A DNA stretch of 64,000 nucleotides from a virus. Taxonomy: Duplodnaviria > Caudoviricetes. Of this stretch, positions 48,492-52,613 are shown piece after piece. The stretch lies in the IMG/VR virus record IMGVR_UViG_2825252539_000001, positions 64,001 to 128,000 of that record, one strand, 5' to 3'. Numbering within the stretch: position 1 is the stretch's first letter; each line of letters opens with the position of its first letter. Under the pieces are notes generated by a model that was not told the origin of the DNA, made no database searches, and saw only the letters and a list, made by a program, of their open reading frames with translations. Position numbers and translations under genes: made by a program.

Positions 48492-50831
48492 ATGGGGGAC
48501 ACCTTGCCATATCCGGTGAAGCAATACCCCGACTATGTCACGCCGCACGGCGAGTACCACATCTTCAAGGGCCGCATCCCGCAGGTTGTTCTTACGGCGC
48601 ATGACGAATCGGTGGAATTTCACCTGATGGGCGGTCGATCCATAGTCGACCATGTCAACCCGGAATCGGTACGGCTCAAAGATATCAAGGGCCTTGTCGC
48701 GCCGTGGAAGACGATCGATCAGAAGGGCGCCACCCAGGACGGCATCACTTTCGTTACCTCCCTTGGTGATCCAATCAAGATTGAAGCGGTCGTCGAGGCT
48801 CGCGGCCGAGATCCGCAGCGCTGCCGCGAGGTGTACAACGACCTTGTCGCCTCGCTTGATAGTGAGAAGACAGGGACTCTTTCGTTCTACACCCATGAGC
48901 AGGGCCGCTGGTGGGGTGATGTCCGCTGGCTAGAAGCGCCCGACGAGAACCTGGAGAAGATCCAGGTCCCTCGCCAGCAGGTAACACTGAAACTACGTGT
49001 CGACGACGGCTTTTGGCGCTCGGACACCGACACCGACTCCTTCGGATTCTCGTATGACGATATGAAGGACACCTTCGACGTCAGCTACAAGAACCGGCAG
49101 ACCCTCGGTCCCAAGTGGCCACAGTATTACGACCCCGTGGGTATCGGATTCTGCTACGCCGACAACGGTCGAGCGATTTGGAATGACGATCCCGAACAGA
49201 TCTTCTTCACTGGTACCAAGTCCGTCATATGTGGTCCATTCAAGGACTACTCAGCGGCAGCTGACGACGTCGATGTCTCCATCAAGTTCAACAATACCCC
49301 GGAGTATACGACGGGATCTGGTGCGGCCAACGATATTTGGGCGCGCATGGGTCGCAACCTCGACGGGACGTGGAACGGATACGGCGTTCGGGCGCGTATC
49401 GGTTGGGGCTATATCCGGATCTCGTACTTCATCAATTTCGAAGAACACGTCATGCAGGACACGTTCGCGCTCATCCCGCCCCTTGCTGGCGAGATCTGGA
49501 CCCTGCGCTGCACTGGACGAAACTTTCAAGTGCGTCGCAGTGGCACTACGGTTCGCGAACACACCGAGGTTGGCACTAACTCATACCTTGGCGTTAACTA
49601 CCGGGGGGTCGGCTTCGGTATGCAGGCCGGCGCCGCAGTCGTCACTCAAGCAACGCCGGGTGCCATCCATAGCATCTCGGTCGACTCCAGCTTGTTAGAT
49701 CCCTTCGACGACGACTACAGCCCCGGATTGGGTCCTGATTGGCCGCTGTACTACATCGGCCGTGGAAAGTCGTTCATTCGCGCTCATGGCAGCCACGCGG
49801 AGTGGATCGACAACGGCGACACAGACACTCAGGTGGTTGTCAACGGTCCGTACGAGGATTTCAATACCGCAACCAACAACCAAGTCATCAACATGGTCCT
49901 TGGTTCGTTCCAGGAGTTGTCGTATCCCGATTCCGGTGCCAACGACCTCTGGGGGCGCATGGGCCGCAACGTCGATGGCAGTTGGAACGGCGACGGCATC
50001 CGGATGCGGATCGAGAACGTCACCGTATCGCTCACACGATTCAACAACTTCGTCCCGACACTGATGCGGTCACGCGTGATCCTCCCGCCGGCCCCCGGTG
50101 ACAAGTTCACGTTGATCTGCGGTGACGAGGGTAACGAACGCCAATTCCGCGTACGACGCAATGGTTCAGATGTTCTCGTTCACAAAGAGACCGACGAGGG
50201 CTCCATGGTGGGGTCTGATTACCGCGGTGTCGGCTTCGGCATGAAGGCCGGCGGAGCTGCAATCACGCAGGCAACCCCCGCGAACGTCAAAGAGATTACG
50301 GCTGGCGACAACTCAACCGTGAGTCAGACGGGGTTCCTGTATCGCAAAAACTGTGGCGATCAGCCCATGTACGACGACTACATCGTCTTCGGGCCGGGAA
50401 CCTTCCGAATCTGGAACGGTCCCAACGCAGGTCCCAACGACTACGTCGAGTTCGGTCCGCTGCTTCCTAACCAGATCATGTATCTGCGAACGCATCCCGG
50501 CAAGAGGTCTGTAGAGGATCTCACCGTCAAGCCGGCAACCCCGCAAGAGCAAGCGCTCGTCGATGCCGCACTCAAGCAGTACTTGTCATTCGCGTTCGGC
50601 AATAACGTGCCGGCGCTTGTGAAAGCGTCGATATCAAAGTTCGGAACCGCTACTGCGCAGGGCAATCCGTACACCCTGCTTACCGGTAGGTGGTCCGACG
50701 ACTGTGCCATTCCGGCGAAATCACCTGGCAATCCGCAAAAGACGTACTCCGTCAAGGTCCAGATCGACAACGGGTCAGTGGACTCGCACATCATCGCGTC
50801 CGGAGTTCCGTTGCGGCGCTATCCAATGTAG
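48492..50831 (+). CDS. Minor tail protein (distal-tail-like) with duplicated internal domain
   Basis: First gene after the tape measure; two copies of LGPxWPxYY...NDxWxRMGRN..GxWNG.G.R...YRGVGFGM.AG. Confidence 0.85.
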   Translation: MGDTLPYPVKQYPDYVTPHGEYHIFKGRIPQVVLTAHDESVEFHLMGGRSIVDHVNPESVRLKDIKGLVAPWKTIDQKGATQDGITFVTSLGDPIKIEAVVEARGRDPQRCREVYNDLVASLDSEKTGTLSFYTHEQGRWWGDVRWLEAPDENLEKIQVPRQQVTLKLRVDDGFWRSDTDTDSFGFSYDDMKDTFDVSYKNRQTLGPKWPQYYDPVGIGFCYADNGRAIWNDDPEQIFFTGTKSVICGPFKDYSAAADDVDVSIKFNNTPEYTTGSGAANDIWARMGRNLDGTWNGYGVRARIGWGYIRISYFINFEEHVMQDTFALIPPLAGEIWTLRCTGRNFQVRRSGTTVREHTEVGTNSYLGVNYRGVGFGMQAGAAVVTQATPGAIHSISVDSSLLDPFDDDYSPGLGPDWPLYYIGRGKSFIRAHGSHAEWIDNGDTDTQVVVNGPYEDFNTATNNQVINMVLGSFQELSYPDSGANDLWGRMGRNVDGSWNGDGIRMRIENVTVSLTRFNNFVPTLMRSRVILPPAPGDKFTLICGDEGNERQFRVRRNGSDVLVHKETDEGSMVGSDYRGVGFGMKAGGAAITQATPANVKEITAGDNSTVSQTGFLYRKNCGDQPMYDDYIVFGPGTFRIWNGPNAGPNDYVEFGPLLPNQIMYLRTHPGKRSVEDLTVKPATPQEQALVDAALKQYLSFAFGNNVPALVKASISKFGTATAQGNPYTLLTGRWSDDCAIPAKSPGNPQKTYSVKVQIDNGSVDSHIIASGVPLRRYPM

Positions 50832-50844
50832 AAGGGGGGTGTAG

Positions 50845-52041
50845 GTGGACGAGAGTCCAGACGCCGTCCTGCAACGTTGGCTCGCTGATCTGAGGTCTGG
50901 CGATGCAACCCGAATCGCCGATTCTGCCCGAACCTTTGCCGACTCAAAGAGCGATCCGCTCAAGGACTTCCGATTTACCGTCTGCGACAAGTTCTGGCAG
51001 CCAATCGCCGAGATAGGCGACGACATTATGGAGGCCGCGGGGACTGATCCCCGCAATAACCTGGGATCGGCCCACCTGAAGATCAAGGGCACCTCGAAAT
51101 ACATCGCGACCTTCCAGAACTGCAAGAACACGATGGTCGGCGTCATCGTCGAAACAAAGGGCGCCCGATGGGCGTTCTATGTCGATTCGTTCGACTACGA
51201 ATTCGCCGACGGGGCCTGGACGGGAACGGTCAACCTCACCTCGATCTGGGACATCCTGAACTATCTGGTCATCTGGCCAGAGTGGTATCTACCGATTCAG
51301 GCTCAACCGGTCTCGCACGCAATCTATTTCGGCGGCATGGTGACCTGCATTCAGGCAATGGTCGCCGAGCAGGCGCTTCGAATCCAATCCGGTCTCAACG
51401 AGTTCATCAACAACCTGCTGTCCGGCAACCTGGACATGCGGTCATGGGTGGACACGCTACTGCAGAACAACGGCAATCTCAGCTCGATCCTGAAGACGCC
51501 TATCTACGTATGTCGAGACAACCCGTTGGCAGACGGTTCGCCCCTACTGGTGCGTACCGTTCGAATGGAAACGGTCGGCGCTGTCGTCAAGGACATCACC
51601 AAACCGTACGGTGTGGACGTTCGCGTTGACCTTTGGATTCCTGGTGACCCACAACCGGATCACTGGACCAACACGATCGACTTCTTGAAACTGAATCAGC
51701 CCACATACGTTGTGTCGGTCAAGGACCGGTCGCAGATCAAGGGTCCGTTCGGGAACGTTCTGGACTCGGTCCTGCGCGAGGTCGTGGACCTCGGCGGTTC
51801 AATTATCGGCGACATCATCAAGCCGTTGATCAGCAAGGTCCCTGGCATGGACGGTGTATTCCGTTCGCCGGCACTGGGTGTGGATTACGTCCCGCCCTGG
51901 GCAACGATTGTCGCCCCCGAACCGGGCGAGAAAAGCCCGCTGGTTACGTGCAAGATTTCAGATCACACGCCCCGCGGTTGGCAACACGTGGTCGGAGGAC
52001 GATCGCCTGCGTGGGTCGGTGCCCCTTGGCTTAATCGCTAA
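50845..52041 (+). CDS. Minor tail protein, N-terminal part (interrupted gene)
   Basis: Typical second minor tail gene; ends GGRSPAWVGAPWLNR* inside a hairpin. Confidence 0.85.
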   Translation: MDESPDAVLQRWLADLRSGDATRIADSARTFADSKSDPLKDFRFTVCDKFWQPIAEIGDDIMEAAGTDPRNNLGSAHLKIKGTSKYIATFQNCKNTMVGVIVETKGARWAFYVDSFDYEFADGAWTGTVNLTSIWDILNYLVIWPEWYLPIQAQPVSHAIYFGGMVTCIQAMVAEQALRIQSGLNEFINNLLSGNLDMRSWVDTLLQNNGNLSSILKTPIYVCRDNPLADGSPLLVRTVRMETVGAVVKDITKPYGVDVRVDLWIPGDPQPDHWTNTIDFLKLNQPTYVVSVKDRSQIKGPFGNVLDSVLREVVDLGGSIIGDIIKPLISKVPGMDGVFRSPALGVDYVPPWATIVAPEPGEKSPLVTCKISDHTPRGWQHVVGGRSPAWVGAPWLNR

Positions 52042-52056
52042 GGGGCACCGACCCAC
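52011..52056 (+). other. Hairpin insertion interrupting the minor tail gene (candidate bypass or mini-intron element)
   Basis: GTGGGTCGGTGCCCCTT-GGC-TTAATC-GCT-AAGGGGCACCGACCCAC: 17 perfect pairs plus 3 more including one G-U, with the in-frame TAA in the 3' arm. Confidence 0.85.
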
Positions 52057-52067
52057 AGGGCAATCCA

Positions 52068-52613
52068 TGGCTTAACAATCTGATCAATGCCTACTTGAGC
52101 TGGCTGATCGACTCGATCTCGATTCTTATCGGAATCACCGGCCTGCCAAGCAATATGCTCGAAGGCTTCTTGAACAACGCGTTCTTCGCGTTCCAGTTGA
52201 TCGAGCTATACCAACGTCGAGACGACATGGGTCCATACCACCCATGTATCGAGACCTTCACCGCCTCGCCATCCGCGCCATACAACATCGAGACACTGTT
52301 CCAGTTCATCAACCTGTTCTGGGATACGCGCGGATACACAAGCGCCACCTTCACTTTCCGTAACGGCGAGCCGTACTGGCTCGGCAAGGACTTGTTCCGC
52401 GGAGCGTTGGTCGTCCTCGTGTTCATGGGGCGCACCAGGATCTACACCGACTACATCGAAAACGTCATGTGGCGCGTCTCGCCAAAAGACCGTGACGTCC
52501 TCATCCAAGTTGGCGACGGCCGCGCTGAAGAGGCGCCACTCGCTAAGCATCAGCGCAACATCACCGGGGCCTTCGAGGCGATCAACGTCATCACATTGGC
52601 GCCCCAGAATTAG
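52068..52613 (+). CDS. Minor tail protein, C-terminal part (continuation in a different frame)
   Basis: Frame reads WLNNLINAYLSWLIDSISILIG..., continuing naturally from GGRSPA; no clear SD at TTG 52095. Confidence 0.8.
   Translation, partial: WLNNLINAYLSWLIDSISILIGITGLPSNMLEGFLNNAFFAFQLIELYQRRDDMGPYHPCIETFTASPSAPYNIETLFQFINLFWDTRGYTSATFTFRNGEPYWLGKDLFRGALVVLVFMGRTRIYTDYIENVMWRVSPKDRDVLIQVGDGRAEEAPLAKHQRNITGAFEAINVITLAPQN

What the first reader, a model, noticed from the sequence alone, without database searches (positions are those of the whole stretch)
52009..52082. Minor tail gene split by a 56-nt hairpin element with matched take-off and landing codons: candidate programmed ribosomal bypass or mini-intron
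Seen: ORF 50845-52041 reads ...GGRSPA-W(52012)-VGAP-W(52027)-L-N-R-TAA, and the protein resumes in another frame at TGG(52068) CTT AAC AAT CTG (WLNNLINAYLSWLIDS...). The gap holds a hairpin at 52011-52056 (17 perfect pairs plus 3, loop TTAATC) with the stop codon in its 3' arm. CC(T/A)TGGCTTAA is repeated at the hairpin apex and at the resumption point, and a mini-SD AGGG lies 7 nt before the second TGG. Skipping 56 nt (TGG 52012 to TGG 52068) gives seamless GGRSPAWLNNLINA, matching the GGRSPxWLN motif I recall from uninterrupted homologs. Skipping 41 nt (52027 to 52068) also restores the frame, adding 5 aa. The downstream part lacks a good start. Established: T4 gene 60 bypassing uses matched codons, a stop in a stem-loop and a mini-SD, and introns are known in Cluster J tail genes but are much larger. 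Inference: a compact recoding element (ribosome hop, protein-assisted splicing, or repeat-mediated DNA deletion) that controls a probably essential tail protein or yields long and short forms.
Basis: partly seen in the sequence, partly recalled or inferred. Interest (0 to 1): 0.92.

Follow-up and report, generated by a model that had tools for sequence, protein, structure and literature searches.

The report
Mobile hairpin cassette splitting tail-hub gene
A 52-58-base RNA hairpin cassette sits at one codon of the tail-hub gene in many mycobacterial phages and prophages, moves between phages, and is most simply explained if ribosomes jump over it, which would be a new natural case of translational bypassing.

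Summary
ORF 50845-52041 ends at a TAA inside a 20-bp hairpin (52011-52056). The protein resumes in another frame at TGG 52068, and skipping 56 nt restores the GGRSPxW|LN motif found in uninterrupted homologs.

It is not a one-off. The same cassette occupies the same codon in 22 distinct sequences, including 15 named plaque-forming phages. The anatomy is conserved:
- CGA TCG codons upstream (21/22).
- A take-off TGG at the base of an 18-bp stem (99.7% of cells paired, 7 compensatory pairs, many sense-strand G·U pairs).
- GGG 5-9 nt before the landing codon.
- Landing codon TGA in 21/22; only the window has TGG.

Inserts are 52-58 nt and fall in all three frame offsets. Nine of 22 carriers have no canonical start until codons 8-43 of the C-half, yet those codons are under purifying selection in sister carriers. 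Carriers are scattered over the gene tree, with co-conversion tracts beside the insert, so the cassette is mobile.

Best reading (about 0.5): programmed ribosomal bypass, like T4 gene 60 but unrelated to it. Main rival: two separately made polypeptides. Nothing was tested at the bench. My literature searches found no description. The scan had flagged this same stretch before in an overlapping window, not on other DNA.

The parts
50845..52041 (+). N-terminal ORF of the tail-hub (Sipho_Gp37-like) gene. Homologous sequence ends at Trp codon 52012-14; the last 9 codons (VGAPWLNR-stop) are cassette-encoded.
   Evidence: Pfam PF14594 E 4.5e-11. PHROG 110 profile positions 29-399.
52000..52007 (+). 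CGATCGCC, the Arg-Ser-Pro codons of GGRSP. The CGA TCG codon pair is specific to carriers. GCC (52005-07) is predicted to pair with GGC (52059-61).
   Evidence: CGA TCG in 21/22 cassettes against 0/47 distinct fused junctions. RNAalifold adds the 3-bp extension, which is invariant and so cannot be tested by covariation.
52012..52014 (+). Proposed take-off codon TGG (conserved Trp), the first three bases of the conserved stem.
   Evidence: Invariant in alignment A1. Pairs with CCA/CCG at the 3' end of the stem.
52011..52056 (+). Hairpin: 20 bp in the window, 18 conserved pairs (52012-29 with 52038-55), loop 52031-36.
   Evidence: z = -7.8; 99.7% of 324 cells paired, 7/18 pairs with compensatory changes, covariation 0.382 against 0.158 in shuffles (0/500). 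37 G·U cells imply sense-strand RNA.
52032..52041 (+). Two window-specific TAA codons in the loop and 3' arm. 52032-34 closes the C-half frame; 52039-41 ends the N-ORF.
   Evidence: C-frame stop 20 nt after take-off.
52057..52061 (+). AGGGC: SD-like GGG 7 nt upstream of the landing codon, followed by a G-poor spacer (52061-67).
   Evidence: GGG is invariant. GGG-to-landing spacer is 5-9 nt in 22/22 cassettes.
52015..52070 (+). The 56 nt that must go unread to give the colinear protein (the proposed coding gap, including the landing codon).
   Evidence: gap 52-58 nt across cassettes, all three frame offsets.
52068..52070 (+). Proposed landing codon. TGG here, TGA in the 21 other cassettes.
52071..52613 (+). 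C-terminal half of the hub protein (LNNLINAYLSW...), 180 codons plus stop. No canonical start before TTG 52095.
   Evidence: PHROG 110 positions 399-582. dN/dS 0.14 against Che9c over codons 1-42.

Best explanation
The insert is a mobile translational-bypass cassette.

Proposed mechanism (inferred, not shown):
1. Ribosomes translate the hub gene up to the conserved Trp codon UGG, which forms the 5' base of a very stable RNA hairpin.
2. With UGG in the P site, the lower stem is already unwound. The invariant G-C-rich upper stem then sits at about +11, near the mRNA entrance, where it would stall the ribosome.
3. Peptidyl-tRNA(Trp) detaches and the ribosome slides over 52-58 nt.
4. The hairpin re-forming behind the ribosome, together with the conserved GGG (a mini Shine-Dalgarno 5-9 nt upstream), positions the P site on UGA (UGG in this window). 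tRNA(Trp) can re-pair there through the first two bases.
5. Decoding resumes at the next codon (CUC/CUU/GUC), giving one colinear hub protein ...GGRSPxW-LN....
6. A stop codon as landing pad is not read by release factors while in the P site, but it terminates any ribosome that reaches it in the A site. That would prevent hub proteins carrying an insertion in their most conserved motif. In the window this role is taken by a TAA in the loop.

Shown by sequence analysis: the anatomy, its conservation and covariation, mobility, frame-independence, and protein-level selection on codons that have no start codon.

At the DNA level the cassette spreads between hub genes by recombination, carrying about 30 nt of upstream and 45 nt of downstream flank with it.
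For: 1. Colinear homologs. Both halves hit one gene in hundreds of phages, and PHROG 110 joins them at profile position 399. In the unbiased sample 75/80 loci are fused. The break lies inside the longest invariant run of the protein (G383 G384. S386 P387 K388 W389 L390 N391 D392 in A3).

2. The cassette sits at the same codon in 22 distinct versions. Carriers include 15 named plaque-forming phages, so it is compatible with function.

3. Frame-independence. Gap lengths are 52 (4 cassettes), 53 (4), 54 (2), 55 (9), 56 (2) and 58 (1), covering all three offsets. The N-frame stop lies 27-621 nt after take-off, so there is no conserved termination-reinitiation geometry.

4. Start codons are missing. 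The first ATG/GTG/TTG in the C frame is at codons 8-43 in 9/22 cassettes (window 9, Lang 26, Che9c and Sbash 43). These codons are nonetheless constrained in sister carriers:
- Lang vs MOOREtheMARYer, codons 1-20: 5 synonymous, 0 non-synonymous changes.
- L033 vs L037, codons 1-11: dN/dS 0.09.
- Che9c vs Sbash, codons 1-42: 2 synonymous, 0 non-synonymous.
- Codon 4 uses TTG, TTA, CTG and CTT for Leu.

5. The take-off codon is at the base of a stem with 99.7% pairing, 7/18 compensatory pairs and covariation above all 500 shuffles. The 37 G·U cells would be A·C mismatches on the other strand.

6. GGG lies 5-9 nt before landing, followed by a G-poor spacer. The T4 gene 60 family has GAG/GGG/GGA/AGG 5-7 nt before landing (section read).

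7. Near-matched flanking codons: UGG/UGG in the window, UGG/UGA in the 21 others.

8. Mobility, as for the T4 cassette.
- MadMen and Kersh are about 96% identical to Che8 over the gene, but differ at 8/35 positions just upstream and 9/48 just downstream of the insert.
- Carriers need at least 8 state changes on the gene tree, 6 of them forced by well-supported branches.
- Spartacus lies 0.005 substitutions/site from a fused gene.

9. There is no promoter or T-tailed terminator between the halves, and no Rfam family matches.
Against: - There is no experimental evidence of a single polypeptide in any carrier.
- The landing codon is UGA in 21/22 cassettes, which is not cognate for tRNA(Trp). In the natural T4-type cassettes, take-off and landing codons are always read by the same tRNA.
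- No stop or rare codon follows take-off. The next codon is GTC (14 cassettes), GCT (6) or GCC (2), and GTC is the commonest Val codon in the window's tail genes (125 of 265).
- The hairpin (18-20 bp) is far larger than the T4 take-off stem-loop and cannot form inside the A site, so the mechanics would differ.
- 13/22 cassettes have a canonical start at codon 4-5. In the Cornie type the N-ORF stop overlaps that ATG (TGATG), a classic coupled two-gene layout, and depositors annotate two genes.
- The dN/dS counts are small.
- Because the cassette is mobile, some divergence outside the roughly 45-nt flank may have accumulated in the fused state.
- Bypassing has not, to my knowledge, been shown on mycobacterial ribosomes.
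Confidence: 0.5

Rival explanations
1. Split gene. The cassette is a selfish or neutral mobile insertion that cuts the hub gene into two polypeptides, which assemble non-covalently. The C-half is started independently, by coupling or reinitiation or at a nearby or non-canonical start, helped by the SD-like GGG. The hairpin serves something else, such as mRNA stability or processing.
For: - Depositors annotate two genes in the Cornie, Spartacus, MadMen and Kersh types.
- 13/22 cassettes have ATG, TTG or GTG at codon 4-5.
- A TGATG overlap occurs in the 53-nt type.
- PHROG 18875 consists of such C-halves.
- T4 MobA and MobE insertions show that split proteins can re-assemble (section read).
Against: - 9/22 cassettes have no canonical start until codons 8-43, yet those codons are under purifying selection in sister carriers.
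- The Met at codon 5 is also present in fused homologs, so it is not a cassette adaptation.
- Codons 1-4 keep L/V-N-D/N-L through synonymous changes even where ATG is codon 5.
- In 12 of the 22 junctions tabulated, the N-ORF runs 95-563 nt into the C-half in another frame.
- The GGG-to-UGA spacing puts the P site on UGA, not on a start codon in the right frame.
- The split falls in the most conserved motif of the protein.
Confidence: 0.27
2. RNA-level excision. The 52-58 nt are removed from the mRNA, by a mini-intron or by protein-assisted cut-and-ligate, before translation.
For: This would also be frame-independent and would give the colinear protein. The hairpin is a plausible recognition element.
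Against: - The element is far too small for a group I or II intron, and no Rfam ribozyme or intron family matches.
- The segment to be removed is asymmetric to the hairpin: it starts 3 nt inside its 5' base and ends 10-15 nt beyond its 3' end. A symmetric double-strand cut plus ligation would not give W|L.
- No RNA contig with the joined form was seen, but cover is absent at the hairpin, so this says little.
Confidence: 0.07
3. In this particular prophage the cassette copy is decaying and the hub gene is no longer functional. The odd TGG landing codon and the two loop TAAs would be drift in a cryptic prophage.
For: The window is the only one of 22 cassettes with TGG at landing and with stops in the loop. 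The record is classed as a provirus. The hub gene sits on a long branch (0.44).
Against: - All conserved cassette features are intact: CGA TCG, a perfect 20-bp stem, GGG at 7 nt.
- Both halves are open and full length.
- C-half codons 1-42 show dN/dS 0.14 against Che9c.
- The neighbouring tail genes are long open ORFs.
- TGG is the cognate landing codon and should help, not hurt, a hop.
Confidence: 0.08
4. DNA-level heterogeneity. A fraction of genomes precisely lose the insert by slippage between the flanking TGG/TGR repeats or the 8-nt apex/landing repeat, and these supply the functional gene.
For: Palindromes flanked by short repeats are deletion-prone (general knowledge). The window has TGGCTTAA twice, 41 nt apart.
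Against: - The 8-nt repeat is not general.
- No fused allele carries the cassette-type flanks. CGA TCG is found in 0/47 distinct fused junctions, so precise deletion has left no descendants in the sample.
- Rare deletions cannot supply a structural protein in single infections.
Confidence: 0.03

Closest known systems
Phage T4 gene 60 translational bypass cassette (MobA element family; Manning & Atkins preprint 10.1101/2022.08.31.505936, abstract and sections 10 and 12 read)
   Same: - A roughly 50-nt non-coding gap inside a conserved gene whose relatives are colinear.
- The take-off codon forms the base of a stem-loop kept by covariation and G·U pairs, with GNRA loops in some members.
- A mini-SD (GAG/GGG/GGA/AGG) lies 5-7 nt before landing, followed by an unstructured spacer.
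- Coding can resume in any frame.
- The cassette travels as mobile DNA with divergent flanks and appears and disappears among close relatives.
   Different: - Different gene (tail hub, not topoisomerase), host (high-G+C mycobacteria) and sequence.
- Take-off UGG and landing UGA are not read by the same tRNA in 21/22 cassettes.
- No stop or rare codon follows take-off.
- The stem is 18-20 bp and fills about 80% of the gap.
- No homing endonuclease gene lies next to it: the flanking genes are all tail genes.
- A nascent-peptide signal is unknown.
Candidate UUA-dependent bypass in Streptomyces phage terminase genes (Antonov et al. 2023, PMC10732093; abstract and outline seen) and the possible bypass or frameshift joining Bxb1 primase genes 50/51 (PMC12646305; passages read)
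   Same: Actinobacteriophage genes whose two ORFs are thought to be joined during translation.
   Different: Those cases rest on a rare UUA codon and a short gap or overlapping ORFs. They do not involve a long conserved hairpin cassette at a Trp codon, and they are in a different gene.
Homing introns and inteins
   Same: Insertion in the most conserved motif of a conserved gene, a sporadic distribution on the gene tree, and co-conversion of flanking sequence.
   Different: At 52-58 nt there is no ribozyme or protein-splicing domain and no endonuclease ORF. No Rfam match.
prfB (RF2) programmed +1 frameshift site (recalled, not looked up)
   Same: An internal SD-like G-run a few nt upstream of a UGA followed by C.
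   Different: Decoding here resumes in the frame of the UGA itself, after a 52-58-nt gap and from any upstream frame. There is no slippery codon before the UGA.

Membership tests
T4 gene 60-type programmed translational bypass | A non-coding gap interrupts an ORF that is colinear in relatives | tested here: met
   75/80 loci fused; PHROG 110 contiguous at position 399.
T4 gene 60-type programmed translational bypass | Take-off and landing codons are matched, that is read by the same tRNA | tested here: inconclusive
   Met in the window (TGG/TGG). Not met in the 21 other cassettes (TGG/TGA), which match in only two of three bases.
T4 gene 60-type programmed translational bypass | [quoted passage not shown] | tested here: not met
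   The next codon is GTC, GCT or GCC. GTC is the commonest Val codon in the window's tail genes.
T4 gene 60-type programmed translational bypass | [quoted passage not shown] | tested here: met
   18 pairs, 99.7% paired, 7 compensatory, 0/500 shuffles as high. The slid controls reach 39-57% paired.
T4 gene 60-type programmed translational bypass | A mini Shine-Dalgarno a few nt 5' of the landing codon | tested here: met
   GGG is invariant and lies 5-9 nt before landing in 22/22 cassettes. It may alternatively pair with the upstream GCC.
T4 gene 60-type programmed translational bypass | A nascent-peptide signal and demonstrated synthesis of one polypeptide | not testable with these tools
   Needs proteomics or reporters.
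T4 gene 60-type programmed translational bypass | Part of a mobile element with a homing endonuclease (MobA) | tested here: inconclusive
   Mobility signs are met. No endonuclease ORF lies adjacent, and the rest of the genomes was not searched.
Ordinary split gene with translational coupling | The downstream ORF has its own start codon with an SD, close to the upstream stop | tested here: not met
   The first canonical start is at codons 8-43 in 9/22 cassettes. The N-ORF stop lies 32 nt before to 563 nt after the first C-half codon.
Intrinsic terminator | A G+C-rich hairpin followed by a T run | tested here: not met
   No T run follows, and the site is not called by the scan.
Self-splicing intron or small ribozyme | A match to a known catalytic RNA family | tested here: not met
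   Rfam scan of 51800-52300 at E up to 10 gave only generic hairpin (miRNA-precursor) hits far below gathering scores.
MITE / REP-like palindromic repeat | Many copies per genome at varied sites, with target-site duplication | tested here: not met
   There is a single copy in the 152,748-nt record. Every true match in three collections lies at this one codon.

The most novel reading that the evidence does not exclude
This would be a second, independently evolved family of mobile translational-bypass cassettes. It lives in the tail-hub gene of mycobacteriophages, and ribosomes hop 52-58 nt from UGG onto a stop codon (UGA) used as a P-site landing pad. The hop would be driven by a long hairpin that re-forms behind the ribosome and guided by a mini-SD. 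It would show that efficient long-range bypassing is not a T4 curiosity, works on high-G+C actinobacterial ribosomes, and needs neither an A-site stop nor a cognate landing codon.
Probability: 0.5. Interest if true: 0.92.

Novelty: new variant of a known kind. Interest (0 to 1): 0.86.

Why it matters
Long-range programmed bypassing is known in bacteria and phages essentially from one family, T4 gene 60 and its relatives. A second, unrelated family would matter for three reasons.

- It would allow the rules to be separated from T4 idiosyncrasies. This family has 22 natural variants, clear covariation, a different tRNA, a stop-codon landing site and a much larger hairpin.
- It is directly testable. 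Che9c, Sbash, Cornie, Spartacus, Lang and others grow on M. smegmatis mc2 155, and near-isogenic fused relatives exist (Che8-type phages).
- It has a practical side. At least 15 deposited phage genomes annotate this gene as two genes or read it through in the wrong frame, so hub-protein annotation in these phages needs revisiting. Anyone synthesising or recoding such phages would break the element with 'synonymous' changes.

Even if the two-polypeptide rival is right, a tiny hairpin cassette that homes into the most conserved motif of a structural gene without an adjacent endonuclease is an unusual mobile element.

Tried and rejected
- RNA evidence. One public RNA run (X1) holds 91% of the sampled words of L014, an IMG/VR contig whose junction is identical to Sbash L005. 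Its contigs cover 1-862 and 920-1416 and stop on either side of the hairpin (866-914). No contig bridges it and no joined form was seen. X2 and X3 held nothing. This neither shows nor excludes splicing.
- Structure. An AlphaFold2 model of a natural fused homolog (L039, 22-row alignment A3) had mean pLDDT 54 and below 50 over residues 378-464, around the junction. It says nothing about whether W389|L390 lies inside a structural element.
- Solved structures. A profile search of PDB sequences gave 0 hits at E up to 0.01.
- Megablast of the gene against phage records found no match.
- A long-range helix between the upstream CGAUCG and the downstream WLID codons was considered. By eye it is not conserved (L029, L030, Lang and MOOREtheMARYer lack it), so I dropped it.
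- A small ORF running from an ATG that overlaps the take-off codon to the UGA exists in the Cornie type, but a TAG interrupts it in Spartacus and it is absent from other length classes. Rejected.
- Initiation at the (A/C)TG overlapping the TGA has good spacing to GGG but is in the wrong frame. It gives M-A-stop in the window and L-T-Q-stop in Cornie. Rejected.
- A rare-codon role for CGA is not supported: CGA is 25 of 135 Arg codons in the window's tail genes.
- No tRNA genes are found in the window.
- Literature. Searches found no description of this element. I read passages of PMC12646305, PMC5009743, PMC2884959 and PMC6426596, the abstract and outline of PMC10732093, and the abstract and sections 10 and 12 of 10.1101/2022.08.31.505936. 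Supplementary files were not opened. Supplementary tables of recoding surveys or phage annotation papers could hold a mention that I could not see.
Full report
**What is in the window.**
- ORF 50845-52041 (+) encodes the N-terminal 389 residues of a siphovirus tail-hub protein (Pfam Sipho_Gp37, E 4.5e-11), then runs on as W-VGAPWLNR-TAA.
- The C-terminal 180 residues follow in the +2 frame from TGG 52068 (WLNNLINAYLSWLID...). The first canonical start in that frame is TTG 52095 (codon 9).
- Between the two parts lies a perfect hairpin, 52011-52056. The 111 nt around it fold at -61.8 kcal/mol against -35.3 +/- 3.4 for shuffles (z = -7.8).
- PHROG 110 aligns the N-half to profile positions 29-399 and the C-half to 399-582, so the break is inside one continuous protein family.
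- tblastn finds both halves in one gene in hundreds of Mycobacterium and Gordonia phages: 1028 and 903 records.
- Che8 and Corndog read GGRSPKW-LNDLMNATF without interruption.
- The window lies in a 152,748-nt record classed as a provirus, and the element is single-copy there.

**It is a conserved cassette, not an accident.**
- Cornie has a hairpin at exactly the same codon.
- A blastn search with the junction found it in further phages: 16 of 18 matching records cover at least 80% of the window query. With the Cornie query 20 of 394 matching records do so, and the remaining records match only the flanking coding sequence.
- Fifteen named phages carry it: Cornie, ThetaBob, Renaud18, Spartacus, LunaBlu, Guppsters, Sabbb, MadMen, Pollywog, Kersh, Che9c, Mycofy1, Sbash, Lang and MOOREtheMARYer.
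- I scanned three collections with a pattern made only of the stem arms plus GGGC:
  - Viral contigs: 18 of 18 loci were carriers.
  - Species-representative genomes: 3 carriers of 8 loci, all Mycobacterium or Mycolicibacterium. The other 5 were unrelated intergenic hairpins.
  - Metagenome contigs: 10 carriers of 16 loci.
- Every true match is at this one codon of this one gene.
- After removing duplicates there are 22 distinct cassettes.
- In a sample chosen only by C-half protein similarity (261 relatives, the best 80 kept), 75 loci are fused (47 distinct junctions) and 5 carry the cassette.

**Conserved anatomy.** From 5' to 3':
- The Arg and Ser codons of GGRSP are CGA TCG in 21/22 cassettes (one lineage, L123/L131, has CGA AGT). 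This pair occurs in 0/47 distinct fused junctions.
- An invariant TGG (the conserved Trp) forms the first three bases of the stem.
- An 18-bp stem follows, with a variable apex that is a GNRA tetraloop in several members.
- An invariant GGG (usually AGGGC) comes next.
- A G-poor spacer puts the GGG 5-9 nt (mode 7) before the next element.
- That element is TGA in 21/22 cassettes and TGG only in the window.
- The first C-half codon follows: CTC, CTT, CTG or GTC.

On the 18-sequence alignment:
- 99.7% of 324 pair-cells are standard pairs.
- 7 of 18 pairs show changes on both sides.
- The covariation score is 0.382 against 0.158 +/- 0.018 in shuffles (0/500 as high).
- Structures slid by 1-3 columns reach only 39-57% pairing.
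- Thirty-seven cells are G·U or U·G. These would be mismatches on the complementary strand, so the selected structure is the sense-strand RNA.
- RNAalifold adds a 3-bp extension, GCC of TCG-CC(N) pairing with GGC of AGGGC. It is invariant and therefore untestable.

**How the two halves relate.**
- The unread segment, from after TGG through TGA, is 52 (4 cassettes), 53 (4), 54 (2), 55 (9), 56 (2) or 58 (1) nt. All three frame offsets occur.
- The N-frame stop falls anywhere from 27 nt (window) to 621 nt after take-off. In Che9c and Sbash the wrong-frame continuation is what GenBank annotates as the gene's C-terminus.
- A canonical start in the C frame occurs at codon 4-5 in 13/22 cassettes. That Met is also present in fused homologs.
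- In the other 9 the first canonical start comes later: L121 at codon 8, the window at 9, L037 at 12, L029 at 16, L017 and L033 at 17, Lang at 26, and Che9c and Sbash at 43.
- These start-less codons are nonetheless translated, judging by selection in pairs that are sister carriers on the gene tree:
  - Lang vs MOOREtheMARYer, codons 1-20: 5 synonymous and 0 non-synonymous differences.
  - L033 vs L037, codons 1-11: dN/dS 0.09, against 0.13 for the rest of the C-half.
  - Che9c vs Sbash, codons 1-42: 2 synonymous, 0 non-synonymous.
  - Che9c vs the window, codons 1-42: dN/dS 0.14.
- Codons 1-4 keep L/V-N-D/N-L while using CTC/CTT/CTG, AAC/AAT, GAT/GAC and TTG/TTA/CTG/CTT.
- Translation therefore appears to enter the C frame at the very first codon after an in-frame stop, from any upstream frame, without a start codon.
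- The counts are small. Mobility means that some divergence beyond the roughly 45-nt flank could date from a fused state. This is strong inference, not proof.

**The cassette is mobile.**
- MadMen and Kersh are about 96% identical to fused Che8 over the whole gene. The differences pile up beside the insert: 8 of 35 positions upstream and 9 of 48 downstream, nearly all synonymous. This is the signature of co-conversion with a foreign cassette.
- I built a tree from the gene with the junction removed (60 nt before it and 75 nt after it). It has 86 DNA rows, 20 carriers and 66 fused. Loci lacking 600 nt upstream or 420 nt downstream, and duplicates, were left out.
- On that tree carriers need at least 8 gains or losses, 6 of them forced by well-supported branches.
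- The Spartacus row lies 0.005 substitutions/site from a fused gene.
- The Cornie and Spartacus stems are nearly identical although their genes differ by about 25%.
- No fused allele retains cassette-type flanks (0/47), so loss by precise deletion has left no trace in the sample.
- The insertion point is in the longest invariant run of the protein, GG.SPKW|LND in A3. Homing elements typically sit in such places.
- No endonuclease gene is adjacent; the neighbours are tail genes. I did not search whole genomes for one.

**Mechanism.** Three routes are frame-independent: a ribosomal hop, independent initiation, and removal of the segment from the RNA or DNA.
- Independent initiation is contradicted in 9/22 lineages by the missing starts and the selection pattern. 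It also has no conserved stop-start geometry.
- RNA removal is unsupported. No ribozyme family matches. The segment is asymmetric to the hairpin, running from 3 nt inside its 5' base to 10-15 nt beyond its 3' end.
- DNA deletion cannot supply a structural protein and has left no scars.
- The hop fits the anatomy point by point with what is described for the T4 gene 60 family:
  - The take-off codon is at the base of a covarying stem-loop.
  - A mini-SD lies a few nt before landing.
  - The spacer is unstructured.
  - Any frame is allowed.
  - The cassette is mobile with divergent flanks.
- The geometry is also sensible, though this part is inference.
  - With UGG in the P site, the lower stem is inside the ribosome. 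The invariant CCCC/GGGG upper stem then starts at about +11, near the mRNA entrance.
  - The landing codon lies 10-15 nt beyond the stem's 3' end. At that distance the whole hairpin could have re-formed just outside the exit channel. This matches the 'exiting-mRNA pairing as driver' idea in the title and abstract of preprint 10.1101/2024.12.09.627546 (search listing only).

**What does not fit the T4 model.**
- The landing codon is UGA in 21/22 cassettes, so peptidyl-tRNA(Trp) would re-pair through two bases only.
- The codon after take-off is an ordinary GTC, GCT or GCC.
- The stem is far too long to fold in the A site.
- My proposal for the UGA is that a stop in the P site is not read by release factors, but it kills any ribosome that enters the C frame upstream. 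That would prevent hub subunits with an insertion in their most conserved motif. In the window, where the landing codon is the cognate UGG, a TAA in the loop (52032-34) closes the C frame instead. This rationale is speculative.

**Comparison and novelty.** The nearest known system is the T4 gene 60/MobA cassette. This element works like it by most structural criteria. It fails or leaves open three defining features (cognate landing codon, poor A-site codon, endonuclease) and shares neither gene, host nor sequence with it. I therefore do not file it as a member. Other actinophage bypass candidates, the Streptomyces phage terminase (PMC10732093) and Bxb1 primase 50/51 (PMC12646305), are different in kind. 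Six full-text searches found no description of this cassette. Supplements were not available.

**Verdict.**
- The element is real, conserved, RNA-structured and mobile.
- Programmed bypass is the best-supported mechanism (about 0.5). A non-covalent split protein is the main rival (about 0.27).
- Decisive tests are simple and use available phages.
- Interest is high.

Noticed in passing
L004 371-2032 (Che9c), L005 371-2032 (Sbash), L006 338-1834 (Lang), L007 356-1735 (MOOREtheMARYer): The deposited annotations read the hub gene straight through the cassette and continue in the non-homologous frame. The true C-half is left unannotated or appears as a short 'hypothetical protein'. PHROG 20512 (553 positions) and PHROG 18875 (175 positions) look like families created by this read-through and by the split annotation.
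   Followed up: partly
window 52024-52034 and 52065-52075; L123/L131 apex: The hairpin apex holds a near copy of the uninterrupted junction (TGG CTT AA.). In the window and in L123/L131 the N frame reads P-W-L-N-R there. Weaker versions (PRLN, PRFN, PWGN, PLGN) occur in other cassettes. This may be a trace of how the cassette arose. It is not needed for the general mechanism.
   Followed up: partly
L123 and L131 (metagenome contigs): This is the only cassette lineage with CGA AGT instead of CGA TCG upstream, so the near-universal CGATCG hexamer is not absolutely required. It keeps the stem, AGGGC and TGA.
   Followed up: no
window 51994-52007: GGAGGA followed by CGATCG. As I recall the 3' tail of 16S rRNA, the GAUC core could extend SD-like pairing just upstream of take-off. 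The hexamer also lies 12 nt before the stem, about where the decoding centre sits when the ribosome first meets the hairpin. Neither idea was tested.
   Followed up: no
L030, L033, L037, L123: In these cassettes the codon after take-off (GTC) equals the first C-half codon (GTC). The flanks are therefore TGG GTC ... TGA GTC, a 6-nt repeat with one mismatch, and a Val-tRNA hop would give the same protein. Other cassettes do not share this.
   Followed up: no
L031, L034, L035, L036, L038, L122, L124, L125, L127, L133, L134: Unrelated G+C-rich hairpins in other Actinobacteria and in metagenomes matched the stem pattern. Those inspected show no homologous hub-gene reading frame and look like ordinary intergenic, terminator-like hairpins.
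   Followed up: partly
window 48492-50831: The upstream 779-aa tail protein has a weak Sipho_tail (Dit-like) N-terminus and two stretches of DUF7257 (E 8e-105), an internal duplication.
   Followed up: no
L014 862-920: Contigs from a public RNA run break exactly at the two sides of the hairpin. This could be an assembly effect of the inverted repeat, poor cDNA synthesis through the stem, or RNA cleavage. The data cannot tell these apart.
   Followed up: partly
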